Below are positions 3,085 through 23,730 of a stretch of 64,000 nucleotides of DNA, in pieces. The translations under genes were made by a program, and so were the position numbers. The notes beneath the pieces are model-generated. The model was not told where the DNA came from, made no database searches, and saw only the letters and a program-made list of their open reading frames with translations. Each line of letters opens with the position of its first letter. Position 1 is the first letter of the stretch. The stretch is from a virus: positions 1 through 64,000 of IMG/VR virus record IMGVR_UViG_3300041809_000801; one strand, given 5' to 3'.

Positions 3085-5907
3085 TCATTCACTGAGCACT
3101 CCTGTCTCAACCAAGAACCGTGACGGCTTCTGCCGAATCGTATCCGTGCCATTCTGAGCCATCGCCGGAACGCAGAGAGTCAACCAATCCTTCGCACGGG
3201 TACAGGCAACGTAGAACAGACGCCGCTCCTCTTCAACTTCTTCCTCAGAGCCCATGGAGAAGCGGTGGGGTAGGGAACCTTCAACGATATTGGTCACGTA
3301 CACTCGTGTCCACTCCAGCCCCTTGGCTGAATGAATGGTGGACACTGTAACCATGCCGTCCTTGTCATCCTCACGCGCCCGGTCGAGCGTAAGCTGAAAC
3401 ACGAGGTCTTCAGTGGACATCTTCTGATCCTCGGAAAGATTCCGCACAAGTTCCCGGAAACGTTCGATATTTTCCAGCTTGGATTTTACCTTGTCCGGTT
3501 CCTTTTTGTACTTGGAGGCGATGTAGGTTTTGTAGTTCATGTAGTCAATGATTTTGTCAAGAGCCTGAACTGGATACTCTCCAAACTTCTGGATATTCTC
3601 CAACGCAGACACGAATGTTGACAACTTATCAATTGACGTACAACCCTTAATCAGGTCACCACCAAACTTCTCATTAGCCGTCTTGCGGATTTTCTCCAGC
3701 GTCACATCACCAGCGCCTGTCTTAGGAACTGTCACAGCACGAGCGAGGGCTGTGAAATCCTTGGGATTGGTCGCCAGACGCAAATAGGAGAGCACGTCAC
3801 GAATCTCTTCAGTCTGAAGCAAGCCACGACCGCCGCGAACTTGATATGGAACGCGGTGACGAACCAAGGCACTTTCGATGTCTGGAACCTGACGAGCGGA
3901 GCGGACAAGAATGCAGTTTTCTTTGTACGGAATCTGGTCACGCTTGCGTGCATTGTCCTTGTAAATCTCTCCCGCGATAATCATCGCAACGTCCAAAGGC
4001 AGCGAGGCCCGAGTGATTTCAAGTGTGCCCTTGGTCTCTGCGTCTCCACGGAAGACCTGCATCTTCAAGGGAATCGTTGCTGTCATTTTTGATTGAATGT
4101 GGTTAGCGAGATACACAATGCGGGGGAGACTGCGATGGTTACGAGCGATGCGATACAGCATGGGACTATGCCCACGCCAGCCTTCGCTGTAGTCCTTGAG
4201 AATCTTTGGCACGGCCCCATTGAAGGCATAGATACAGTTACCTACCACCAAACCATCAGCAATGTAGGTATGGTCTTTCTCAACGTCAAGAGAGTATACT
4301 TGACCCTCAAACCACGCACTGGTAACAGAAGATATGGGCGTTGATTGGTTCACTCCGGGTAATGGAATGTCTAACAGAGAAGCGATGGGAACAGCATTAG
4401 CGGCGATGGTTTTGAAATACCCACGCCATTTGCGATTGCACTGATTTACAGTCGCATCATTCGACCGCTCTACTAGTGGCGTGTTTACATCCAACCCATA
4501 ATCTTCCAAACACTGTACTGCCTTTTTGGGGTCAGCATGAGAAAATACAAGCTTAATGAAATCTTGAGTCTTGTTTACACAGGCATGTTCAGCGTTGAAC
4601 ACACTCTCAGGGATGCCATATTTAATTGAGACGATTTCTTCCCACGCTTCTGCTTCAGGTCGAGAATCACAAACCCTTAAAATCCAAGCCCGATTGCCTC
4701 GTTCACAATTGAGCCGACTACTTAAACCAAACCCTGTCTGGCTCATGTTCTTTTTGAATTTACTCATCCCGACACGGAAACCATAACCGTCCTTCTGCAT
4801 CAGATACACAATGTACTTATCTCGGGTATTCTTGTTAAACCGTACCCACAACCAATGGTTTGGTGTAACGCGAGTGGACAAATTGTTCGCGGCGTGGATG
4901 GTAAGCAACGGCCCCTTATAGAAACGACTAGCTGCACGCACACCACGTTCAGCCGCATAAGTGCGTTGGTCACACTTTGTCCAAGAAACCACCCCCACAT
5001 CTGCCAATTGAAGTTCTCCTGTAAACGATTCAATTGAGACATCCTTATAGGTGGCGGGGTGTGTCCCATGTCCCGGTTTGTCTAAAGTTCGTACCATAGT
5101 TCCGGCTGGTTGACACTGGCTCATGTCGCCGACGACATAGAAGTTCTTGTTCGTTGGTGAGAGCAAGGAGTTCACAAACTCCCATTGCACAGGGTTGGTG
5201 TCCTGAGCCTCATCCATAAGCACATGTTCAAATCGCTTTCCCATGGACTCGCGGTAAGAGTCGTCTGTGCGGAGACGGCGGACAACCAGATGTAACATGT
5301 CATCGAAATCCACGACAGAGTTCTTTTTCTTTTCCTCTTCGTAGGCTTTCCAGATTTGCATGTCTAGCGGTTCGAGAGCGTGGTAACCGGCGTGTTCTAT
5401 CTGAGCCCGTTCATGAACTTCGTCGGTGTACTCTTCAGAAAACCCAAGACCACGAGAGCGGTGGAATCCCACTTTCTCAAGCAGGTTGTACACATAGGAG
5501 CCGAGACTGATGCCTTTCTCCTTGATGTCCACTTCCCGCTCCACAATTCTGCGAAGCATCTGAGTCTGGTCGTAGTCGTCCAGTGGAGTTACCTTGTTCT
5601 GAAGTCCAAAGCCGGGAGGGCTCTGACGAATGGAGCCAAGAGCCAAAGAGTGGATGGTGGACACCTTGGGAATGTCGAAGGATGCCTCCTCCAGTTCAAG
5701 CCGTTCCAATAGCTCGTTTGCGGCTTTGTTGGTAAATGTCACGCAACAAATTTTTCTAGGTGGCACCCCTTGGTTGATAAGATACCGTACCCGTTCAGTA
5801 AGAACCCGAGTCTTACCACTACCGGCCCCTGCAATTAAACACGCTGGAGAATCCACAGGGTGTTGCACCGCCAGCATCTGCTCTTCATTCAATTGTATTT
5901 GCGGCAT
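3085..5907 (-). CDS. uvrD: UvrD/PcrA (SF1) DNA helicase containing an intein
   Basis: AGAGSGKT, TFTNKAA, DEAQD, VVGD..Q|intein|CIYAFNGA, TIHSAKGLEW, EEERRLFYVACTRAK; ATG 5907 preferred as start. Confidence 0.93.
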   Translation of the reverse strand: MPQIQLNEEQMLAVQHPVDSPACLIAGAGSGKTRVLTERVRYLINQGVPPRKICCVTFTNKAANELLERLELEEASFDIPKVSTIHSLALGSIRQSPPGFGLQNKVTPLDDYDQTQMLRRIVEREVDIKEKGISLGSYVYNLLEKVGFHRSRGLGFSEEYTDEVHERAQIEHAGYHALEPLDMQIWKAYEEEKKKNSVVDFDDMLHLVVRRLRTDDSYRESMGKRFEHVLMDEAQDTNPVQWEFVNSLLSPTNKNFYVVGDMSQCQPAGTMVRTLDKPGHGTHPATYKDVSIESFTGELQLADVGVVSWTKCDQRTYAAERGVRAASRFYKGPLLTIHAANNLSTRVTPNHWLWVRFNKNTRDKYIVYLMQKDGYGFRVGMSKFKKNMSQTGFGLSSRLNCERGNRAWILRVCDSRPEAEAWEEIVSIKYGIPESVFNAEHACVNKTQDFIKLVFSHADPKKAVQCLEDYGLDVNTPLVERSNDATVNQCNRKWRGYFKTIAANAVPIASLLDIPLPGVNQSTPISSVTSAWFEGQVYSLDVEKDHTYIADGLVVGNCIYAFNGAVPKILKDYSEGWRGHSPMLYRIARNHRSLPRIVYLANHIQSKMTATIPLKMQVFRGDAETKGTLEITRASLPLDVAMIIAGEIYKDNARKRDQIPYKENCILVRSARQVPDIESALVRHRVPYQVRGGRGLLQTEEIRDVLSYLRLATNPKDFTALARAVTVPKTGAGDVTLEKIRKTANEKFGGDLIKGCTSIDKLSTFVSALENIQKFGEYPVQALDKIIDYMNYKTYIASKYKKEPDKVKSKLENIERFRELVRNLSEDQKMSTEDLVFQLTLDRAREDDKDGMVTVSTIHSAKGLEWTRVYVTNIVEGSLPHRFSMGSEEEVEEERRLFYVACTRAKDWLTLCVPAMAQNGTDTIRQKPSRFLVETGVLSE
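4237..5115 (-). mobile_element. Intein (293 aa) in UvrD motif III
   Basis: Begins CQPAGT, block B TRVTPNHWLWV, ends YSLDVEKDHTYIADGLVVGN followed by Cys+1; removal restores GDMSQ-CIYAFNGA. Confidence 0.92.
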
Positions 5908-17437: not shown

Positions 17438-17803
17438 TTATGGTGCGATGAACGTACTACACGAGGACGGACCGGAAGTAGGAATACTGCCAGCCCCTGA
17501 CTCCACATCATAACTGTACTGTGTTCCTGACACCACTGACGTATCGGTGTAAGACGTTACCTGAGTAATAGGGGTAGTGGTCAAAAGAGTCCAGCCGGGA
17601 GAGCCACTCAAACCCAAAGGGCAAACACCCCCAATTCGATACACCCAAAAATTGCAAGGCGTGGTTGAAGTACAGCCCGGAGGTAGTTGCCACGGCACCA
17701 CGATACCTGAGATGGGTGGTGGGGGAGGGGGAGGCGGTGGTGTAACTACTTTACACCCAACGCAGCATCCAAGAAGAATCAAAAGAAAACTGAACCGCTT
17801 CAT
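17438..17803 (-). CDS. Lipoprotein-like FN3 paralog with poly-Pro linker
   Basis: MKRFSFLLILLGCCVGC, P9 run, VYRIGG.CP...YTDTSV..GTQYSYDVE. Confidence 0.65.
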   Translation of the reverse strand: MKRFSFLLILLGCCVGCKVVTPPPPPPPPPISGIVVPWQLPPGCTSTTPCNFWVYRIGGVCPLGLSGSPGWTLLTTTPITQVTSYTDTSVVSGTQYSYDVESGAGSIPTSGPSSCSTFIAP

Positions 17804-17820
17804 AATACGACCTCAATAAT

Positions 17821-17898
17821 TGGTGCGTCCTGAGGGAGTCGAACCCCCGACCTTCTCTGCGTCAAAGAGTTGCTCTAAACCCACTGAGCTAAGGACGC
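17821..17898 (-). tRNA. tRNA-Val(GAC)
   Basis: Cloverleaf, loop TT-GAC-GC, A73, CCA. Confidence 0.85.
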
Positions 17899-17916
17899 AG
17901 GTACAGCATATCATAA

Positions 17917-17994
17917 TGGTGCCCCCGGTGGGACTCGAACCCACGACTCGCAGAAATTTAGAGTTTCCGGTTCTACCAACTGAACTACAGGGGC
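17917..17994 (-). tRNA. Amber-suppressor tRNA (CUA)
   Basis: GGAAA-CT-CTA-AA-TTTCT anticodon arm, canonical D/T arms, 7-nt variable loop, A73, CCA. Confidence 0.88.
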
Positions 17995-18013
17995 GCTGGA
18001 AACCTTCATTCTT

Positions 18014-18043
18014 AGTATACCTAATTAAATGAAAGTTTGGCTA
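18014..18043 (-). promoter_or_regulatory. Promoter for tRNA-CUA/tRNA-Val
   Basis: TAGCCA-18 bp-TATACT. Confidence 0.65.
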
Positions 18044-18099
18044 GTTTTTGACTATTGAACCCTAGAGCAGAAGCACACTCTGAATGCAATGGGGTTCAA

Positions 18100-18759
18100 A
18101 TGGAAACAACAGATGCGGAATTCATCGAAATCGTGAAACAGGCAACCAGTATTTGCGGGGTACTTAACCTCCTCCACAAGGCACGTGTGGGCACCAACTA
18201 CAAGATGGTGCGAGAACGGTTGACTAAACTCAACCTACAGCCGCACTGGGTAAAACCAACGCCCAAAAAAGTTCCTCTGGAGGAACACCTGTGTAAAAAC
18301 AGTACGTATTCCCGTAATCGGCTGAAAAAACGACTAATTGCTTTGGGTATTCTAAAGAATATCTGTGCTCTGTGTGGTCAATTGCCTGTGTGGAATGGTA
18401 AACCCCTCGTTCTTCGACTCGACCACATCAATGGGGTTAACGATGACAACCGCATTGAGAACTTGAGACTGCTTTGTCCTAATTGTGACAGCCAAACCGA
18501 TACCTTCTGTGGTCGGAACAGAAAAATGGTTGAAATAGAAAAAGCACAACGCACCTGTGAGGACTGTAGGACAAACATCTACGCCCGTTCCAAGAGATGC
18601 CGATCCTGTCAAAACAAACAGCGGTATCAGTCGCCCAAAATCAACTGGCCCTCACTTCCTGACCTTCTAAAAATGATCGAGGAGACCAGTTATCTTCAAT
18701 GTGGTAAGCTGCTTGGAGTATCCGATAATGCGATACGAAAACACATCAAGACGTGCTGA
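18100..18759 (+). CDS. HNH homing endonuclease with C-terminal HTH
   Basis: CALCG...LDHING.NDDNRIENLRLLCPNC; C-terminal GKLLGVSDNAIRK. Confidence 0.88.
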   Translation: METTDAEFIEIVKQATSICGVLNLLHKARVGTNYKMVRERLTKLNLQPHWVKPTPKKVPLEEHLCKNSTYSRNRLKKRLIALGILKNICALCGQLPVWNGKPLVLRLDHINGVNDDNRIENLRLLCPNCDSQTDTFCGRNRKMVEIEKAQRTCEDCRTNIYARSKRCRSCQNKQRYQSPKINWPSLPDLLKMIEETSYLQCGKLLGVSDNAIRKHIKTC

Positions 18760-18882
18760 GGGGTTGGCTAAACCTGAGGCACCGGGTTCCCGCGTTACCG
18801 CAGGAGGCCGTCCGGTCTTCGCTGAACACCTATTCGGTGCAGACCCCGCTTCCTCAGCACGTCACTTACATGATACCGGGGT

Positions 18883-19227
18883 CTACTTGGTTTTGGCTAG
18901 TAATTTTTTGCCCAAACCCATAATCTCTTCCACCCTGCGTTTTTCTTCCTCGGGTATATCGAGATGGTTCCAAACAGATACCGGGCGACCGTAACAGTCG
19001 TTAAACACGTCTTGCCCACAGATTCCGCATACTTTATATGTACACGCTTTCTGTGAGCCCCGCTTTGGTTGCCGTTTCGTCTTCAGCCACAGCTTCCCAT
19101 CGGGCGTGCGATGGTCGCACTCCCGTTTCAGTTCGCTGAACCTGACTTCCAAGTCGCACCACTGCTCATGGGCTTTTTGGGCACGCTTCGCCAGTACAGT
19201 AGTTTTCGAGATGAATGTTTTGTTCAT
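18883..19227 (-). CDS. Hypothetical protein
   Basis: SD GAGGAGG; CxxC motif. Confidence 0.55.
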   Translation of the reverse strand: MNKTFISKTTVLAKRAQKAHEQWCDLEVRFSELKRECDHRTPDGKLWLKTKRQPKRGSQKACTYKVCGICGQDVFNDCYGRPVSVWNHLDIPEEEKRRVEEIMGLGKKLLAKTK

Positions 19228-19415
19228 ACCTCCTCTAATACTCGTTGGGCGACGAGAACAGGGCATTCGCTATCGTGCTCAATTTCTGTAATACTGGGCA
19301 CTCCATAACCGCCACAGTAGTGACAGGTGTAGAATGTCCGTCCGCTGTTTCCCGATTCATACTGGTCGTACCAGTTGTTGAGAATTGCCTCGGCAAGAAT
19401 CTTGCTGTTTTCCAT
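19224..19415 (-). CDS. Hypothetical small Zn-binding protein
   Basis: CHYCG...EHDSEC. Confidence 0.55.
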   Translation of the reverse strand: MENSKILAEAILNNWYDQYESGNSGRTFYTCHYCGGYGVPSITEIEHDSECPVLVAQRVLEEV

Positions 19416-19600
19416 TTCCTATGTCATTTTGTTTTCCTTCCTTCTTGTTTTCCTTCCTTCCTTCGTTGTGTTAAATTGAAGTTGATGCTGACTCGGGCTT
19501 CATCCTTTCACCGAGTGCAGCAGGAGAGGGGCAGACGGTGATGCACCTGTACTTGCGTTAGACTTCGGTCTTCTGCCCCTCAAGTTTTTCGAGGACGCCC

Positions 19601-20229
19601 ATGAAACGATTTTGGCTGCTACTCCTGTCTCTCGTCATCATGGTTCTGTGTCTCCTGTGTCTTTCATGGTTTTTGGATCACCGCCCAGTCCTCCTCCATG
19701 TGTACAGCCGGAATTGTCCGTTATTGAAAAAGGCCCGGGACGCTTCTATCACCACGAAGACGTTCTTCTCCCCAACCCCCAAATCTCGCCCGGTGCCATT
19801 CGCTCTGATGCAACCGAGACTGAAGTTTGCACTGACTCCACCAAAGAATTCCGGCACACATCCAAAAAAATGAAGGATGATGTGTACGCCGCCTACTTTG
19901 TGATGCCCCACTCTGGCATCTGTGCGGATGTTTACCGCACCACCAAAACCGGCAAGCAAGTCAAAGAGTCGTGCGAGGTTGACCACATCATTTCTCTCGA
20001 ACTCGGCGGTGCCGACGACGAGAAGAATTTGTTTCCTCAACCATACGACCCACCCAACGGGGTGCCCGGTGCCCACGCTAAAGACGCCGTGGAAAACTGG
20101 CTGCACCGTCAGGTATGTGTCACGCACACCATGAGTCTTCAAGAGGCTCAAAAAGAAATCTCGACCGATTGGTATCAGGTCTACTTGGACAATCATCTTG
20201 CCCCCGAAGACGACACCAACGAGAACTAA
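19601..20229 (+). CDS. Exported HNH-like nuclease; signal peptide and body in different frames
   Basis: Body: LPNPQISPGA...EVDHIISLELGGADDEKNLFPQ...KDAVENWLH..VC; SD plus ATG 19601 opens a hydrophobic leader in another frame. Confidence 0.55.
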
Positions 20230-20302
20230 TCTTTCTTTTTCAACTCCCAATACCCAGTCCAACAAATTGCAACTCGGTCGTCCCATTCTGACTCACGCCG
20301 GT

Positions 20303-20369
20303 CAGGCTACGAACAACACAATGAACGCAATGACTATCAATACGCTCATGCCTTCACCCCCTGAACAGC
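20303..20369. repeat. 67-bp perfect direct repeat, copy 1
   Basis: Identical to 21961-22027. Confidence 0.95.
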
Positions 20370-20834
20370 TTCAAGCGTGGCAACAAACTCCTCGCGGGCC
20401 TGCTGCTTGATGGCGGGACGCATCATTTCGATGGTCTCCATAACCTTCGCCTGAGTAAGCCGGTCGGATTCGGCTTGCTTGGCAGCGAAGAAATCATTGA
20501 CAGACTTCTCCCACCGAGTAACCTCGGCTTTGAAGTACGTCTGTACAGCGTCCTTGACGAGGCTTTCGATGATGGCTTTAGCCTCGGGTGGGAACTTGTA
20601 CGTGCTGGTGATGCTCTTGTTGAATTCGGCGATGGACTTATTGATAGTAGCTTGCATCTCCGACTCAAACTTGTCGAGTGAGATTTTCTGTGCCTTGCGC
20701 TTGAGTTCCTCGGCAATCTTTTCGATAGCCATGGTCTGAAGCTTAATACGAACTTCCGGCTCTTCGTCAAGAATCTTACGAAGCGTTGCGGTGCGAACGA
20801 GAAGTTCAACGGGTGCGATTGTTGTCGTAGACAT
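20346..20834 (-). CDS. Hypothetical coiled-coil protein
   Basis: 162 aa, helical, SD present. Confidence 0.65.
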   Translation of the reverse strand: MSTTTIAPVELLVRTATLRKILDEEPEVRIKLQTMAIEKIAEELKRKAQKISLDKFESEMQATINKSIAEFNKSITSTYKFPPEAKAIIESLVKDAVQTYFKAEVTRWEKSVNDFFAAKQAESDRLTQAKVMETIEMMRPAIKQQAREEFVATLEAVQGVKA

Positions 20835-20835
20835 A

Positions 20836-21354
20836 TTACTCTCCCTTCCGTGAGAACGTCGTGATAACCATGGACTGAGCCGGTGAGGTCTTCTGCTCGT
20901 CCGCCTTCTGGCCCTTCATCGTGAACTTGAGGTTGCGGCCATCGTACTTGTTCTTGACACCGCTGAACGTGTGTGGCGATGGTGACTGAGCATCGAGCCA
21001 CACATCCCAGTTAACGACCACTGGAAGATTTTCATCCATGGCCTTGTAAATGGTGTACTCCCAATCGGGGTACTTTTCCTTCCAGTACACCATGTCCTTG
21101 TTCGCCCACGTCCAAGCGTCGAGATTGTAGTAGGTGCTCGACCAGTAGAGAAACGTGCGGTTGGGCTCAACACCGAGGCTTAACGAATTCTCAACCGGAC
21201 CGTAAAGCTGGTCGTCGTTCGGCTTCTTGATGAGGATGATGTATCCGGCCTTAGCAACCTCCATGAGGCGGTTGTTCCGTGCCACGTCCTCGTCAGTAGC
21301 GACAAGGGGCTCCTGCGGCTCGATGAGACGCACAACTTCATTAGGCTGCTGCAT
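20836..21354 (-). CDS. Hypothetical protein
   Basis: 172 aa, SD GGAGG. Confidence 0.65.
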   Translation of the reverse strand: MQQPNEVVRLIEPQEPLVATDEDVARNNRLMEVAKAGYIILIKKPNDDQLYGPVENSLSLGVEPNRTFLYWSSTYYNLDAWTWANKDMVYWKEKYPDWEYTIYKAMDENLPVVVNWDVWLDAQSPSPHTFSGVKNKYDGRNLKFTMKGQKADEQKTSPAQSMVITTFSRKGE

Positions 21355-21685
21355 AGCAAACCTCCGGCGACCAGAGGCGATAGGTGCCCATGGCTTTGCG
21401 CTGCTTTTTGTTTTGGATTGGGTAGGTGGAGACCGCCGTCAAGCCGAGGTCATTGTCAGGCTCATAGAAAGCCTCGTAGTCAATGCCATAGCGTTGGAGC
21501 CGTTCAATGACGGCCTCAAGTTCTGACTTGTCGGGAACTCCGATAAGAACGACCGATGGAGTCTCGGTGCGTTCGGAAAGGCGGGATGCCATCTCAAAGG
21601 TGGCGTGGTTGGACTGCACGATTTGTTGAGCGAGACTGATGTCAGTCCGCACGAAAACGAAAGTGTGGTTGCTTACCTAGTGCAT
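21341..21685 (-). CDS. Pth2-like peptidyl-tRNA hydrolase with in-frame TAG at codon 3
   Basis: ATG CAC TAG then VSNHTFVFVRTDISLAQQIVQSNHA...VVLIGV...FYEPD...GLTAV..YP; SD AGGAG before ATG 21685. Confidence 0.7.
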
Positions 21686-21741
21686 TTTCCTTCTCCTCAT
21701 TACTGGATTTGGTAGTTCTCGGATTTCTCCGACTTGCGCTT

Positions 21742-21771
21742 ACTCTACACGGAAGAGTCGCCGGTTGTCAA
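21742..21771 (-). promoter_or_regulatory. sigma70-type promoter for the pth2-like cassette
   Basis: TTGACA-18 bp-TAGAGT, just after a GGGGCGG/CCGCCCC terminator-like hairpin (21784-21807). Confidence 0.65.
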
Positions 21772-21824
21772 GAAAATTTTTCAGGGGCGGTCTGTCAACC
21801 CGCCCCCAGTTTTGGATGATGAAG

Positions 21825-22007
21825 CTACGCCGCATCTCGTTTCCGGGGATGTCCAACGTTGTTCACGCAGACCTCCACTTCCCCTGTCGGGTCTTCTTCC
21901 AACAGCTTAATGAGTTCCTTGATACCACGATTGTACCCAAGCCTGTCTGCCATAAACAAACAGGCTACGAACAACACAATGAACGCAATGACTATCAATA
22001 CGCTCAT
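21825..22007 (-). CDS. Small membrane protein
   Basis: MSVLIVIAFIVLFVACLFMADRLGY...; its 5' end lies in the direct repeat. Confidence 0.5.
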   Translation of the reverse strand: MSVLIVIAFIVLFVACLFMADRLGYNRGIKELIKLLEEDPTGEVEVCVNNVGHPRKRDAA

Positions 22008-22027
22008 GCCTTCACCCCCTGAACAGC
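21961..22027. repeat. 67-bp perfect direct repeat, copy 2
   Basis: Identical to 20303-20369. Confidence 0.95.
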
Positions 22028-22354
22028 CCATCGTGCGGCTGGTCTTCCGCGTACAACCATATAATACACGGGGGTGGCAAGTTTTGGCTACATTTTTTTC
22101 AACAAATCGTTTTTTCTTTTGAGAACCTCAGAAGCGTAAAGCGCGGCCCACTGCAAGTCACGCTCTGTGAGTCCAACTCCTTCAACATCCACGTGGATAC
22201 TGCCGAGAGGCATATCCTGTCGCAAATGAATGATGTGCTCGACGCCTTCTTTGGTGTTGCCATCCAGCCAGACCTGAGTAACACCCGTCCAGCCGTTGCC
22301 ATCCATGATACATCTCAGGGTCAAAACAAGTACAACGCATTCTACCCTCAATTC

Positions 22355-22484
22355 GGTACGCTGGGCAGGGCCTCTCCTGCGACCTCCCCATTACCAATGG
22401 GTGCTCTTGGCTTTTACCTCTCCCTCCGGAGTCGTGGGTACCCCCCTCGTCCGTCCCTTGAGGCGTAATTCTGAGCTACCAGCG
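22355..22484 (-). ncRNA. tRNA-Thr(GGU)-like RNA with large D-loop insertion
   Basis: CGCTGG/CCAGCG, TA, GCTC...GAGC, CCCA-TTGGTAA-TGGG, AGGTC, GCAGG/CCTGC. Confidence 0.6.
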
Positions 22485-22487
22485 AGA

Positions 22488-22886
22488 TTAAACTTTGTTG
22501 AACTCCCCTCCATCATACATCACGGCGAAAGCCAAAGCACCACGAAGTTCAGTATACTCTTCGTCAGTACCAAGGTTGAACTCTCGCATCACTTTATTTT
22601 TGACGTAGGCTTCCACCTTGTTGTATTTGAGCCCGTCGATGAAAGCCTTCACAGATTTCAAGAAGGGATACCGCTTGCGTTTTTCTACAATGCAATCAAC
22701 GATGGCTTCGGCGTCCCTTTGATAGCATCCGCATACCTCGCAGGGTGCGGGGTCCCCCGGTCCGCTGAAACGAAAGACTTGAACCTCAGAGCCACAGTGA
22801 CATTTTACTGTAGCGTAGCCCTCTTGCAGAGTGTCGTACTCCGCCCTTGACATCGTGACTTCGGAACCGTCCTCAGACCACTTCAT
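22488..22886 (-). CDS. Hypothetical Zn-ribbon protein
   Basis: 132 aa; CHCG and CEVCG; SD AAGGAG. Confidence 0.6.
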   Translation of the reverse strand: MKWSEDGSEVTMSRAEYDTLQEGYATVKCHCGSEVQVFRFSGPGDPAPCEVCGCYQRDAEAIVDCIVEKRKRYPFLKSVKAFIDGLKYNKVEAYVKNKVMREFNLGTDEEYTELRGALAFAVMYDGGEFNKV

Positions 22887-23034
22887 CTTTTGACTCCTTG
22901 GTCTCGGTCAAATCTACGCGAAAATATGTGGCCTCATCCTCCGTCCAATGCACAGACATGGACGGGTAGTGAGAATTCTCAAGTCGCGTTCTTGTTCCAA
23001 CTCTACGAGACATATTGACGCCCAAAAATCGGTA

Positions 23035-23326
23035 GGGGTCGCTTTTGGCGACCCCATCCTAGTGAACTATTCTTTCACAGAGTCAGCCCACGAACTCCGA
23101 GTAGCTGGTTATTAAGCAGCCGCTGCAAGTGCCATTGGTTCGGCAGATGTTATTTTTCCCACCATATAACGGATAGCGAGAGAACGAGTTGTTGACGGCT
23201 TCCTTCCAAAACATCTGTCGAAATCTTGGCGGGCCCATAGATTTTATTGGTGGACCCGGTGGGAATCAAACCCACGTCCAAATGCTGGTTAGAACGTCTT
23301 CAGCCTCTTGCGAAGCACACAACCAT
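23035..23326 (-). ncRNA. ssrA: Circularly permuted (two-piece) tmRNA
   Basis: Acceptor piece ends GTGGG-TTTGATT-CCCAC-CGGGTCC-ACCA at 23248; 11-nt spacer; coding piece starts GGGCCCG at 23236 (G3.U70); tag AEPMALAAAA** at 23144-23109; outer ends approximate. Confidence 0.88.
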
Positions 23327-23332
23327 ATACCA

Positions 23333-23361
23333 ATAATACCCGTAGTCGGGAAATTCTGCAA
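23333..23361 (-). promoter_or_regulatory. sigma70-type promoter for tmRNA
   Basis: TTGCAG-17 bp-TATTAT. Confidence 0.7.
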
Positions 23362-23364
23362 GAG

Positions 23365-23730
23365 CTACGTGCGTGCAATATTCTGAGGAAAGTACGTTTT
23401 CATCAATTGCGTTCCAGTCGTCATCGCCGGGTCGTAGGGGTAATCAATCCAAAGTCCAGTCCATTCGCCTTCCTTATTCTCATGAAGGCACCAGCGGCAA
23501 CCCAACACTGGGGAATCTGGTCTGCCGTTACACCAGACGTGGTGATACGGGCGGGGCGGGGGAGTGAGTGCTTCTCCGGTGAAGGCAACTCTTTGACAGG
23601 CTACGAGGATTCCACACTCGCACACCATCGACACTGACTTAAGCTTCTCCTGTTCCAACTCTGGACGCAGGATTCGCTCATGACATTTTGGGCACAACCC
23701 AATCCAGACGATTCGTGTCCTTCTATCCAT
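23365..23730 (-). CDS. Hypothetical Cys-rich protein
   Basis: 121 aa, several CxxC motifs. Confidence 0.5.
   Translation of the reverse strand: MDRRTRIVWIGLCPKCHERILRPELEQEKLKSVSMVCECGILVACQRVAFTGEALTPPPRPYHHVWCNGRPDSPVLGCRWCLHENKEGEWTGLWIDYPYDPAMTTGTQLMKTYFPQNIART

What the first reader, a model, noticed from the sequence alone, without database searches (positions are those of the whole stretch)
21341..21700. Pth2-like gene gated by an amber codon at position 3, in a genome with its own CUA tRNA
Seen: promoter, SD AGGAG, then ATG CAC TAG (21685-21677) in frame with VSNHTFVFVRTDISLAQQIVQSNHA. The tracked GTG start (21652) has no SD and would cut off the first beta strand (hVhVRxD) of the Pth2 fold. 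Inference: full-length hydrolase is made only by UAG read-through (phage tRNA-CUA at 17917-17994, or RF1 shortage); otherwise a Met-His minigene is translated. Established: very short minigenes (lambda bar) generate peptidyl-tRNA drop-off, the substrate of Pth, so the arrangement could be a feedback sensor.
Basis: partly seen in the sequence, partly recalled or inferred. Interest (0 to 1): 0.8.

Follow-up and report, generated by a model that had tools for sequence, protein, structure and literature searches.

The report
Amber-gated phage Pth2-like gene
A wetland phage that uses the normal genetic code has the stop codon UAG as codon 3 of a small tRNA-hydrolase-like gene and carries its own UAG-reading tRNA; about a hundred distant phages, some lab-grown, keep this layout, which suggests what the puzzling suppressor tRNAs of such phages are for.

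Summary
On the minus strand a promoter-like site and an AGGAG Shine-Dalgarno (SD) site precede ATG CAC TAG (21685-21677). This is in frame with a 111-codon ORF ending at 21341.

An independent DNA run and three RNA libraries show the same TAG. The read-through protein models as a Pth2 fold, and a start at GTG 21652 would delete its first strand.

The early stop is strongly conserved:
- 71 of 77 distinct close homologues have an early in-frame TAG, 54 of them as ATG-NNN-TAG. Protein identity among them falls to 27%.
- 67 of 72 gated genes have no usable start codon after the stop.
- 67 of 69 have a purine right after TAG.
- 32 of 37 loci with enough flank hold a tRNA-CUA.
- The two TGA-gated homologues each sit beside a tRNA-UCA instead.
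- Cultured phages ME3, GAP32, Arash and RsoM2USA share the gate.

The contig otherwise uses the standard code: 17 of 74 genes end in TAG.

Best reading: a read-through gate served by the phage's own suppressor tRNA.

Other families share the gate, including an HD-like enzyme and a second ORF in this window (19427-19224).

I found no published description. This scan has already reported the same phenomenon on other genomes.

The parts
21742..21771 (-). Sigma-70-like promoter: TTGACA (21771-21766), 18 nt, TAGAGT (21747-21742). It would give a 5' UTR of about 50 nt.
   Evidence: 10 of 12 matches, the best site in 17700-23500. This is a consensus match only. RNA-library contigs run across it, so read-in from upstream is also possible.
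21693..21697 (-). Shine-Dalgarno AGGAG, 7 nt before ATG 21685.
   Evidence: An SD-like tract precedes the leader ATG in 36 of 55 two-codon-leader homologues. Ten others have a -10 box 3-10 nt before the ATG and so look leaderless.
21677..21685 (-). The gate: ATG CAC TAG, with the amber stop as codon 3, followed by G (GTA).
   Evidence: Reads from 4 studies agree. Conserved in 71 of 77 distinct homologues. The base after TAG is G in 34, A in 33, C in 2 and T in 0.
21341..21685 (-). Full read-through ORF of 114 codons plus TAA, encoding a Pth2-fold protein. Database gene calls take only 21341-21652, from the GTG.
   Evidence: pLDDT 85; Pth2 structures, TM 0.64-0.69.
17917..17994 (-). tRNA with anticodon CUA (amber suppressor). 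It has a canonical cloverleaf, U33, A37, discriminator A73 and an encoded CCA. The amino acid it carries is unresolved.
   Evidence: 59.6 bits.
18014..18043 (-). Promoter-like site TAGCCA-18-TATACT, directly upstream of the tRNA-CUA/tRNA-Val pair. It suggests the tRNA has its own promoter, of a different kind from the gene's.
   Evidence: The same TAGCCA-18-TATNNT pattern occurs at 22090-22061 and 18899-18870. Consensus match only.
18271..18286 (-). Terminator-like hairpin with a T run, lying between the gene block and the tRNA-CUA promoter-like site.
   Evidence: Consensus match only.
19224..19427 (-). A second ORF with the same gate: SD, ATG ACA TAG GAA ATG GAA..., 67 codons, small Cys-rich protein. 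An ATG follows one codon after the TAG.
   Evidence: ATG ACR TAG NNN ATG is kept in all 5 distinct homologue loci: L036, L043, L001, L004 and the window.
20836..21354 (-). 172-aa gene of unknown function whose ATG (21354) overlaps the end of the Pth2-like ORF by 14 nt. It has its own GGAGG, so translational coupling is possible.
   Evidence: no family hit; conserved only in close relatives.
23021..23340 (-). Phage-encoded permuted tmRNA, 1.3 kb upstream on the same strand. It recurs upstream of the gated gene in 16 of 71 homologue clusters.
   Evidence: RF04321, 59.2 bits.

Best explanation
The UAG at codon 3 is a conserved translational gate.

How it would work:
- Ribosomes start at the SD-served ATG 21685.
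- After one elongation step they meet UAG.
- RF1 then ends a Met-His dipeptide, unless the phage's own tRNA-CUA (17917-17994) decodes the UAG. Only in that case is the 114-residue Pth2-fold protein made.
- The protein's level therefore follows the amount of active suppressor tRNA relative to RF1.

Why the gate sits at the N-terminus: the truncated product is trivial there, and any inserted amino acid is tolerated.

The same gate heads other genes of these phage tRNA islands, so the suppressor tRNA appears to have a small private set of target genes in a phage that otherwise uses the standard code.

What is shown and what is inferred:
- Shown: the sequence, its conservation, the fold, and the linkage and co-variation with the tRNA.
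- Inferred: that read-through happens at all, its efficiency, the inserted residue, and the enzyme's substrate. The likely substrate is an acyl- or peptidyl-tRNA ester, but the canonical Pth2 lysine is missing.
For: 1. The stop is real and conserved. 71 of 77 distinct homologues have an early TAG while protein identity falls to 27%. In a second, more distant sample 26 of 62 are TAG-gated.
2. The segment after the stop is coding. It carries the conserved Y-x-F-V-R strand, which is beta-1 of the model. 67 of 72 gated genes have no ATG, GTG or TTG between the stop and that strand.
3. No homologue has a sense codon in place of the stop within a retained leader. Ungated members simply start at an ATG further on.
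4. tRNA linkage. 32 of 37 TAG-gated clusters with at least 3 kb of downstream flank hold a tRNA-CUA, at a median of about 0.8 kb from the gene. 87 of the 291 distinct tRNAs near these genes are suppressors.
5. Co-variation. The two TGA-gated genes (L014, L200) sit with a tRNA-UCA and no tRNA-CUA. For L014, all tRNA regions found on the 143-kb contig were checked: 35 tRNAs, and UCA is the only suppressor. Fisher p = 7e-4, uncorrected for relatedness.
6. Context. The base after the gate TAG is a purine in 67 of 69, against 11 of 17 after this contig's ordinary TAG terminators (p = 6e-4). From my own recollection of Bossi 1983 and Miller and Albertini 1983, a 3' purine favours amber suppression.
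7. The contig is not recoded. 17 of 74 confident genes end in TAG, including genes of 889, 780, 1295 and 1028 aa, and no long gene is split by TAG.
8. Cultured standard-code phages have the same layout: ME3 (ATG ACT TAG plus tRNA-CUA), GAP32, Arash and RsoM2USA.
Against: - Nothing here is experimental. Expression, charging and decoding by the tRNA are all inferred.
- Two related phages keep the TAG gate but have no tRNA-CUA among all detected tRNAs: G002 (121.7 kb, CheckV 100%, 36 tRNAs) and G001 (105 kb, 89%, 30 tRNAs). The phage tRNA therefore cannot be an absolute requirement, unless those contigs are fragments or the host supplies a suppressor.
- L108 and L109 have a TAA at the gate position, and no tRNA-UUA was seen within 4 kb.
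- A strong suppressor should be costly, because 23% of this contig's own genes end in TAG. Their contexts show no adaptation.
- The codon after TAG is mostly GTN or ATH, and is ATG or GTG in 5 lineages. This also fits a re-initiation reading.
- Ungated and fused homologues sit beside a tRNA-CUA nearly as often as gated ones: 12 of 22 and 7 of 11 against 18 of 26. The protein-tRNA tie is therefore not explained by the gate alone.
Confidence: 0.68

Rival explanations
1. Mini-ORF with re-initiation. ATG-NNN-TAG is a tiny upstream ORF. After termination the ribosome, still held by the SD, restarts at the very next codon or at a nearby ATG. No suppressor is needed, and the mini-ORF only sets a low or regulated initiation rate.
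For: - The codon after TAG is start-like more often than expected: ATT/ATC/ATA 25, ATG 4, CTG 2, GTG 1 of 69.
- Where an ATG directly follows the TAG (L030, L077, L104, L114), the mini-ORF is still kept.
- The second gated ORF of the window always has an ATG one codon after the TAG.
- G001 and G002 have the gate but no tRNA-CUA.
Against: - 31 of 69 have GTT, GTC or GTA after the TAG. These are not start codons in bacteria, having two mismatches to the initiator anticodon.
- 67 of 72 have no canonical start before strand beta-1.
- This reading does not explain why the stop is TAG in 71 of 77. Any stop would serve.
- It does not explain why the two TGA cases carry a tRNA-UCA.
- It does not explain the tight tRNA-CUA linkage.
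Confidence: 0.12
2. A sensor of termination capacity that does not need the phage tRNA. The UAG is read at low level by near-cognate host or phage tRNAs (such as Gln, Tyr, Lys or Trp). Output rises when RF1 is scarce or blocked, so the rescue-type enzyme is made when termination at UAG fails. This is the logic of prfB, but by read-through.
For: - G001 and G002 keep the gate without a tRNA-CUA.
- The gene lies between a tmRNA and tRNAs, that is, in a ribosome-rescue neighbourhood.
- The early position of the stop resembles prfB.
- No RF-1 domain gene is present on the contig.
Against: - The strong linkage with tRNA-CUA, and the anticodon switch to UCA where the gate is TGA, would be unexplained.
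- Near-cognate read-through is normally well under 1% (my own knowledge), which is very low for a conserved enzyme.
Confidence: 0.1
3. Not a gate. The gene is a pseudogene or an assembly error, or the protein really starts at GTG 21652 as database gene calls have it.
For: Gene callers give the 103-aa GTG form (P0002-P0004). Several cultured-phage records leave the gene unannotated.
Against: - Reads from four studies agree on the TAG.
- The ORF is intact and conserved in about 100 lineages.
- GTG is not conserved: 19 of 77.
- There is no SD before it.
- A GTG start deletes strand beta-1 of the fold.
Confidence: 0.03
4. General code change. The phage reads TAG as an amino acid everywhere (code 15), and this TAG is just one of many.
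For: A suppressor tRNA is present. Large phages with TAG recoding exist (bioRxiv 10.1101/2021.08.26.457843).
Against: - 17 of 74 confident genes end in TAG, and ORFs of up to 2150 codons contain none.
- Re-assigning TAG does not merge coding segments.
- Cultured relatives with the gate are ordinary standard-code phages of proteobacteria.
- A freely used sense codon would not stay fixed at one N-terminal position across proteins 27% identical.
Confidence: 0.03

Closest known systems
Stop-codon-recoded phages with their own suppressor tRNAs (TAG read as Gln, 'code 15'; crAss-like and Lak phages; bioRxiv 10.1101/2021.08.26.457843; PMC9523058)
   Same: A phage-encoded tRNA-CUA is proposed to read in-frame TAG. 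In-frame stops are proposed to hold back translation of certain genes until the tRNA is present.
   Different: - Here the genome keeps TAG as an ordinary terminator (23% of genes).
- The in-frame TAG is a single codon at position 3 (range 3-14) of a few specific small genes next to the tRNA.
- The position is conserved across very distant phages.
- The gated genes are tRNA-end enzymes, not lysis or structural genes.
- That paper mentions neither a hydrolase nor a tmRNA.
prfB (release factor 2) autoregulation through an early in-frame UGA
   Same: An early in-frame stop codon in a translation-related gene makes the yield depend on how well that stop is recognised.
   Different: - prfB escapes by a +1 frameshift at a defined slippery site. 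Here the ORF continues in the same frame with no shift site.
- In prfB the product itself reads the stop. Here the product is a Pth2-fold protein, and any feedback on UAG decoding is unproven.
Archaeal/eukaryotic peptidyl-tRNA hydrolase 2 (Pfam PF01981; structures 2zv3, 3erj, 1xty, 1q7s)
   Same: - Same fold (TM 0.64-0.69, probability 1.0).
- Shared motifs: h-V-R-x-D, Q-x-x-H-A and D...G.T.
   Different: - The 'KMGKGK' loop that carries the catalytic Lys (Lys18 in Sulfolobus Pth2, from my own recollection of Fromant 2005) is deleted. The aligned residues are Gln-Gln.
- The window protein does not reach the Pfam threshold.
- In the collections I searched the family turned up in phage and metagenome DNA; my one pattern scan of bacterial and archaeal genomes found none. 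Other reports of this scan place a related cassette in soil Acidobacteria (not checked here).
- The family is tied to suppressor tRNAs.
Lambda bar minigenes (two-codon ORFs that load Pth with dipeptidyl-tRNA)
   Same: An SD-served two-codon ORF, and a thematic link with peptidyl-tRNA hydrolase. Early drop-off of peptidyl-tRNA is well documented (PMC10192219).
   Different: - bar minigenes stand alone. Here the stop is in frame with a conserved ORF.
- The leader length varies.
- Families unrelated to Pth use the same device.
Laboratory amber mutants of phages grown on suppressor hosts (T4 and lambda 'am' mutants with supD/E/F)
   Same: The logic is identical: a gene is expressed only where an amber suppressor tRNA is present.
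   Different: Here the arrangement is natural, is conserved by selection, and the suppressor is supplied by the phage itself.

Membership tests
PTH2 superfamily (PF01981) | Pth2 alpha/beta fold | tested here: met
   AF2 model pLDDT 85. The 14 Foldseek hits with E <= 0.001 are Pth2-family or related structures (2zv3, 3erj, 1wn2, 1q7s, 1rlk, 1xty, 2gax), TM 0.64-0.69, probability 1.0.
PTH2 superfamily (PF01981) | Sequence match to the Pfam model above its curated cut-off | tested here: inconclusive
   The window protein has no PTH2 hit even at E <= 10. 12 of 24 relatives hit below threshold, best E = 3e-4. The fused XacN1 homologue scores 25.3 bits against a cut-off of 23. A profile search against PDB sequences finds a peptidyl-tRNA hydrolase (24bt_A) at E = 0.0026.
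PTH2 superfamily (PF01981) | Catalytic Lys in the G-K-G-K loop after V-V-R-x-D-L (Lys18 of Sulfolobus Pth2; from my own recollection) | tested here: not met
   The loop is deleted. In the HMMER alignment to 24bt_A, its 'stgKKcVQScHA' aligns to 'slaqqivqsnHA'. The position is Gln20/Gln21 in the window protein, and 'AQQ' is the family consensus.
PTH2 superfamily (PF01981) | Catalytic Asp in the D-x-G-x-T motif (Asp86 of Sulfolobus Pth2; from my own recollection) | tested here: inconclusive
   Asp77 (in E-P-D) and Thr87 are invariant and Gly81 nearly so. The equivalence rests on motif order, not on a residue-level superposition.
PTH2 superfamily (PF01981) | Hydrolysis of peptidyl-tRNA or N-acyl-aminoacyl-tRNA | not testable with these tools
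   Needs an enzyme assay.
Stop-codon-recoded (code 15) phages | In-frame TAG in many genes, and TAG not used as a terminator | tested here: not met
   17 of 74 confident genes end in TAG. No long gene is interrupted by TAG. Only 29% of the genome is in hand.
Stop-codon-recoded (code 15) phages | Phage-encoded suppressor tRNA | tested here: met
   tRNA-CUA at 17917-17994.
prfB-type autoregulatory recoding | Escape from the early stop by a +1 frameshift at a slippery site with an internal SD | tested here: not met
   The ORF continues in the zero frame directly after the TAG, in the window and in all homologues.
prfB-type autoregulatory recoding | The gene product acts on decoding of the same stop codon (closed feedback loop) | not testable with these tools
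   There is only circumstantial linkage of the protein family with suppressor tRNAs, which holds even for ungated members.
Pyrrolysine or selenocysteine insertion | Specialised tRNA shape (tRNA-Pyl with short D loop and 3-nt variable loop; tRNA-Sec with long arm and 8+5 acceptor/T stems) plus dedicated machinery | tested here: not met
   The tRNA-CUA has a canonical cloverleaf with a GG-containing D loop and a 7-bp acceptor stem. The UCA tRNA of L014 is 76 nt with a short variable loop. ARAGORN's 'Pyl' and 'SeC' labels reflect the anticodon only. PylS and SelB were not searched for.
Lambda bar-type minigene | A stand-alone two-codon ORF whose only product is a dipeptidyl-tRNA | tested here: not met
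   The stop is followed in frame by a conserved 111-codon ORF. Leaders of 3-13 codons also occur.

The most novel reading that the evidence does not exclude
The suppressor tRNA and the Pth2-like protein form a self-limiting pair. The protein hydrolyses the acyl or peptidyl ester on the suppressor tRNA itself, and its own synthesis needs that tRNA to read codon 3. Charged suppressor is thereby held at a low set-point. This would let a standard-code phage keep a private 'codon' that switches on a small set of tRNA-end repair and rescue genes (the Pth2-like gene, the HD-like phrog_14850 and others) without wrecking termination of its own TAG-ended genes.

This reading would explain two things: why the protein family stays beside tRNA-CUA even where the gate is absent (12 of 22 ungated and 7 of 11 fused homologues), and why the canonical Pth2 lysine is replaced.
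Probability: 0.15. Interest if true: 0.9.

Novelty: new variant of a known kind. Interest (0 to 1): 0.76.

Why it matters
Many standard-code phages, including well-studied jumbo phages, carry 'suppressor' tRNAs whose targets have been reported as unknown:
- The XacN1 paper read through all 18 amber stops and found nothing (PMC5852040).
- The Summit announcement says that possible targets were not identified (PMC9022506).

This finding names targets: genes that open ATG-NNN-TAG and that gene callers truncate or miss. It also suggests a small, natural, tRNA-dependent expression switch.

It bears on three further points:
- It gives a plausible first step on the road to full stop-codon recoding.
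- It corrects annotation of a family with about 2,800 cluster representatives.
- It is directly testable in cultured phages: ME3, GAP32, Arash, RsoM2USA and XacN1.

A natural codon-3 amber gate could also be useful as a design for suppressor-dependent expression.

Tried and rejected
DNA around the closest protein hits (P0003, P0004; 90-92% identical) could therefore not be read.
- Megablast of the region against phage records found no match.
- A pattern scan of 185,579 bacterial and archaeal genomes for the family found none. The pattern is narrow, so this is not evidence of absence; other reports of this scan mention Acidobacteria.
- A simple anticodon-loop/T-loop DNA pattern for tRNA-CUA proved unreliable. 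It missed the known GAP32 suppressor and gave many chance hits. I dropped it in favour of Rfam plus ARAGORN on fetched regions.
- Assigning an amino acid to the tRNA-CUA by nearest typed tRNA was inconclusive. The CUA tRNAs fall into at least three classes (A73, G73, U73) with weak similarity to Arg, Lys, Pro and others.
- RNA structure around the gate: the minimum-energy fold of 21735-21600 is no better than shuffles (z = -1.1). There is no sign of a read-through-stimulating hairpin.
- ATG(5943)...TAG(5925-5923) before the 944-aa helicase-like gene is a chance hit. That gene has a normal ATG at 5906.
- The TAG at 13021-13019 between two 'coding-like' segments lies over a tRNA-Thr gene, so I took it as an artefact.
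- Neighbouring genes (172, 162, 202, 127, 68, 87, 132 and 121 aa) have no Pfam or PHROG hits.
- The odd 'tRNA-Thr(AGU)' downstream of the gene in L009 and L023 was checked as a hidden suppressor. Its loop GCAGUCU contains no CUA.
- RNA-library contigs cover only 21573-22388 of the stretch laid. Nothing can be said from this about transcript ends or expression level.
Full report
**1. What is in the window**

The minus strand reads as follows:
- TTGACA (21771-21766), 18 nt, TAGAGT (21747-21742)
- about 45 nt of spacer
- AGGAG (21697-21693), then 7 nt
- ATG CAC TAG (21685-21677)
- GTA AGC AAC CAC ACT TTC GTT TTC GTG (21652) CGG ACT GAC, running on to TAA 21343-21341

The listed ORF is only the 103-codon GTG form, and protein databases hold that form.

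The window also holds:
- a tRNA with anticodon CUA at 17917-17994(-), scoring 59.6 bits on Rfam tRNA
- a permuted tmRNA at 23021-23340(-)
- ten further tRNAs

The contig is 88.9 kb, and CheckV rates it 29% complete. It is therefore a fragment of a large phage.

**2. The stop is real**

Contigs from an independent wetland DNA run (X2) cross 21677-21679 without a single difference. So do contigs from three metatranscriptome libraries belonging to other studies (X5, X7, X8). This excludes an assembly error and argues against RNA editing. Because these are contigs, they say nothing about transcript ends or expression level.

**3. What the protein is**

- Read through the TAG, the protein aligns over its whole length with homologues.
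- The AlphaFold model has mean pLDDT 85.
- All 14 Foldseek matches with E <= 0.001 are Pth2-family or related structures: M. jannaschii MJ0051, A. fulgidus AF2095, P. horikoshii PH1539, human Bit1, S. solfataricus Pth2 and Atu0240. TM-scores are 0.64-0.69.
- A profile of the family finds a peptidyl-tRNA hydrolase among PDB sequences at E = 0.0026.
- Pfam PTH2 is hit below threshold by 12 of 24 relatives, and above threshold by the fused XacN1 homologue (25.3 bits against a cut-off of 23).
- Strand beta-1 of the model is residues 7-13 (HTFVFVR), so a start at GTG 21652 (Val12) would remove it.
- The family keeps the R-x-D, Q-x-x-H-A and E-P-D...G..T motifs.
- It lacks the Lys-bearing loop of canonical Pth2. 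The aligned residues are Gln-Gln.

I therefore call it Pth2-like in fold and descent and leave its substrate open.

**4. The early stop is a family trait**

I fetched 114 homologous loci from viral and metagenome contigs and 7 from cultured phages. They collapse to 77 distinct sequences.

| Start type | Count of 77 |
|---|---|
| Early in-frame TAG | 71 |
| Early in-frame TGA (L014) | 1 |
| Ordinary ATG start | 5 |

- 54 of the TAG-gated genes have exactly ATG-NNN-TAG. The rest have leaders of 3-13 codons, such as MRKAIGDL*, MKLQLEGL*, MSQH* and MRPDR*.
- Two of the five ordinary-start genes are the fused XacN1/RAS14 form, whose N-terminal domain itself opens ATG AAG TAG.
- Two further loci (L108, L109) have TAA at the gate position.
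- Gated proteins are as little as 27% identical, with a median of 50%.
- On a tree the gate covers the whole family. One nested loss (L016) and the TGA case sit inside TAG clades.
- In 67 of 72 gated genes no ATG, GTG or TTG lies between the stop and strand beta-1.
- The codon homologous to GTG 21652 is GTG in only 19 of 77.
- No homologue replaces the stop by a sense codon while keeping the leader.

A caveat on method. I found the stop by walking upstream in frame, so 'in frame' holds by construction. The non-trivial facts are that the stop is TAG, that it sits right behind an SD-served ATG, and that no start codon follows it.

**5. Link with suppressor tRNAs**

- Among TAG-gated clusters with at least 3 kb of downstream flank, 32 of 37 have one to three tRNA-CUA genes in the locus. 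The nearest lies at a median of about 0.8 kb. In one clade the tRNA abuts or overlaps the 3' end of the ORF.
- 87 of the 291 distinct tRNAs found around these genes are suppressors.
- L014 has ATG CAT TGA. All tRNA regions found on its 143-kb contig (CheckV 100%) hold 35 tRNAs, and the only suppressor has anticodon UCA.
- L200, from a different clade, has ATG GAA TCN TGA and also a tRNA-UCA with no tRNA-CUA in its locus.
- No TAG gate is paired with a non-CUA suppressor alone.
- The base after the gate TAG is G in 34, A in 33, C in 2 and T in 0. After the contig's own TAG terminators the counts are 11 purines and 6 pyrimidines.

**6. Not a recoded genome**

- 17 of 74 confident genes on the contig end in TAG, among them genes of 889, 780, 1295, 1028 and 635 aa.
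- ORFs of up to 2150 codons contain no TAG.
- Treating TAG as sense does not join coding segments.
- The cultured phages that share the gate infect ordinary proteobacteria:

| Phage (host) | Gate | tRNA-CUA |
|---|---|---|
| ME3 (Acinetobacter) | ATG ACT TAG ATT | 450 nt upstream |
| GAP32 (Cronobacter) | ATG GCA CAA TAG | 2.8 kb downstream |
| Arash (Salmonella) | ATG CTG TAG | 1 kb downstream; the record calls it tRNA-Phe |
| RsoM2USA (Ralstonia) | ATG TTG TAG | none in 3 kb; gene unannotated |

**7. The same gate on other genes**

A blind scan of all loci looked for ATG-NNN-stop followed by an open frame of at least 55 codons:

| Stop | Hits | Hits with SD |
|---|---|---|
| TAG | 149 | 84 |
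| TGA | 28 | 8 |
| TAA | 42 | 6 |

Besides the Pth2-like family, three families recur.

- **A 67-codon Cys-rich ORF that is also in this window.** It reads SD, ATG ACA TAG GAA ATG GAA... at 19427-19224(-). The pattern ATG ACR TAG NNN ATG is kept in all 5 distinct homologues.
- **phrog_14850, about 190 aa.** It is gated in 10 of 16 distinct loci, including RsoM2USA, XacN1 and RAS14. Its model (pLDDT 90) is closest to bacterial 'tRNA processing enzyme' structures 3wfo-3wfs and to HD-domain hydrolases, at TM about 0.6 and E about 0.03, so this is a lead and not a proof. Its alignment shows H...HD...H...D motifs. In XacN1 and RAS14 this domain is fused to the Pth2-like domain.
- **A 150-aa family** (L011, L020).

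The amber gate is therefore a device used on several genes of these tRNA islands.

**8. The protein goes with the tRNA even without the gate**

A second sample of more distant homologues gave 62 distinct loci:

| Class | Loci | With a suppressor tRNA in the locus |
|---|---|---|
| TAG-gated | 26 | 18 (CUA) |
| TGA-gated | 1 | 1 (UCA) |
| Ordinary ATG start | 22 | 12 (CUA), 1 (UUA) |
| Fused to another N-terminal domain | 11 | 7 (CUA) |
| Unclear | 2 | 1 (CUA) |

In several of these loci the suppressor is the only tRNA present. The family as a whole is large: 2,775 cluster representatives at E <= 0.001. This points to a working relationship between the protein and suppressor tRNAs that goes beyond the gate.

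**9. Exceptions**

- G002 (121.7 kb, CheckV 100%) and G001 (105 kb, 89%) have ATG ACG TAG and ATG CAT TAG.
- I fetched every region where Rfam finds a tRNA in these two. ARAGORN shows 36 and 30 tRNAs and no CUA.
- Three explanations remain: the contigs are fragments of larger genomes, the host supplies read-through, or the gate can work by low-level natural read-through.
- This is the main reason my confidence stays below 0.7.

**10. Mechanism**

The best-supported reading has these steps:
- Initiation is at ATG 21685.
- tRNA-CUA and RF1 compete at codon 3.
- The full-length product appears only on read-through.

In the window the gene has a sigma-70-like promoter. The tRNA-CUA/tRNA-Val pair lies 3.3 kb downstream, behind a terminator-like hairpin (18286-18271). 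It has its own, different promoter-like site, TAGCCA-18-TATACT at 18043-18014, a pattern seen three times in the region. If these sites are real, the protein needs two inputs: its own mRNA and the separately controlled tRNA.

Several features fit the N-terminal position of the gate:
- The truncated product is only a dipeptide.
- Any inserted residue is tolerated, which matters because the CUA tRNAs belong to at least three acceptor classes.
- Termination on very short nascent chains competes with drop-off (PMC10192219 on early drop-off), which may favour the tRNA.

Whether the output is a feed-forward or a negative feedback on the suppressor cannot be decided here. A feed-forward would mean rescue and repair enzymes are made in step with suppressor load, which fits the neighbouring tmRNA.

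**11. Prior knowledge**

- Full-text searches found no description of an early amber codon in a phage Pth2-like gene.
- The recoding preprint does not mention a hydrolase or a tmRNA.
- The XacN1 paper states that read-through of its 18 amber stops revealed no target for its two CUA tRNAs.
- The Summit note says the same for its suppressor.
- The CBB paper lists CBB_392 as a peptidyl-tRNA hydrolase without comment on its start.
- Within this scan the same phenomenon has been reported several times on other genomes. My analysis was done independently before I saw those notes, and it agrees with them.
- New here, as far as I can see:
  - the read evidence for this window
  - the second gated ORF in the window
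  - the two suppressor-less exceptions
  - the finding that ungated and fused homologues keep the tRNA-CUA neighbour

Noticed in passing
window 19224-19427 (-): A second ORF in the same island opens SD-ATG ACA TAG GAA ATG GAA. It has 67 codons, is Cys-rich, and gives a weak DUF3222/zinc-ribbon hit. The ATG ACR TAG NNN ATG opening is kept in all 5 distinct homologues.
   Followed up: partly
window 22061-22090, 18870-18899, 18014-18043 (-): Three promoter-like sites share the unusual -35 hexamer TAGCCA, an 18-nt spacer and TAT(T/C/A)(A/C)T. One sits directly before the tRNA-CUA/tRNA-Val pair. This may be a phage-specific promoter class distinct from the TTGACA site of the gated gene.
   Followed up: no
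L009:3016-3681, L014:3001-3489, L023:2971-3423, L034:2968-3393, L031, L087-L090, L100-L103 and others: In many homologues the ORF has no stop codon before the next tRNA gene and runs into it. The C-terminal tails, such as ...SSVGRAP..GGPRFES.., are translated tRNA. After tRNA 5' processing the mRNA would lack a stop, which is a substrate for the tmRNA encoded just upstream.
   Followed up: no
L009:3353-3428, L023:3314-3389, L014:3337-3414: The 'tRNA-Thr' genes right after the gated gene in this clade have non-canonical anticodon loops. Two read GCAGUCU, with C33 and C37, and one has A33 and a G.A pair. They may be tRNA-like processing signals rather than decoders.
   Followed up: partly
L010:4639-4957, L020:5458-5708, L052, L054, L075 and others: Up to three different tRNA-CUA genes sit in a row. 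Across all loci they fall into at least three acceptor classes: A73 with GCCCC.., G73 with ACxCC.., and U73 with GCGCG... They could insert different amino acids.
   Followed up: partly
L130:4295-4369 (Salmonella phage Arash, OQ632216.1): A tRNA annotated as tRNA-Phe in the record has anticodon CUA according to ARAGORN.
   Followed up: no
L127 (RsoM2USA), and hits H4-H14 (Erwinia SNUABM phages, Serratia BF, Yersinia fHe-Yen9-04): The Pth2-like gene is not annotated at all in these cultured-phage records, and it is truncated in ME3, GAP32 and Arash. The early stop is the presumable cause.
   Followed up: partly
L131:2443-3303 (Xanthomonas phage XacN1 ORF364) and L133 (RAS14): The phrog_14850 (HD-like) and Pth2-like domains are fused in one protein. 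An SD-served ATG AAG TAG lies in frame 5 codons before the annotated ATG. XacN1 carries two CUA tRNAs whose targets its authors could not find.
   Followed up: partly
L214, L217-L221, L225, L226, L229-L235: Another architecture. A 130-180-aa N-terminal domain (MKDFR..L..TKQ....H.VQYAILRA...) is fused to the Pth2-like domain. A tRNA-CUA is often the only tRNA in the locus.
   Followed up: no
L201 (about 2289-2297): One homologue has the leader reduced to ATG TAG ATC, a start codon directly followed by the amber stop, with a tRNA-CUA in the locus.
   Followed up: no
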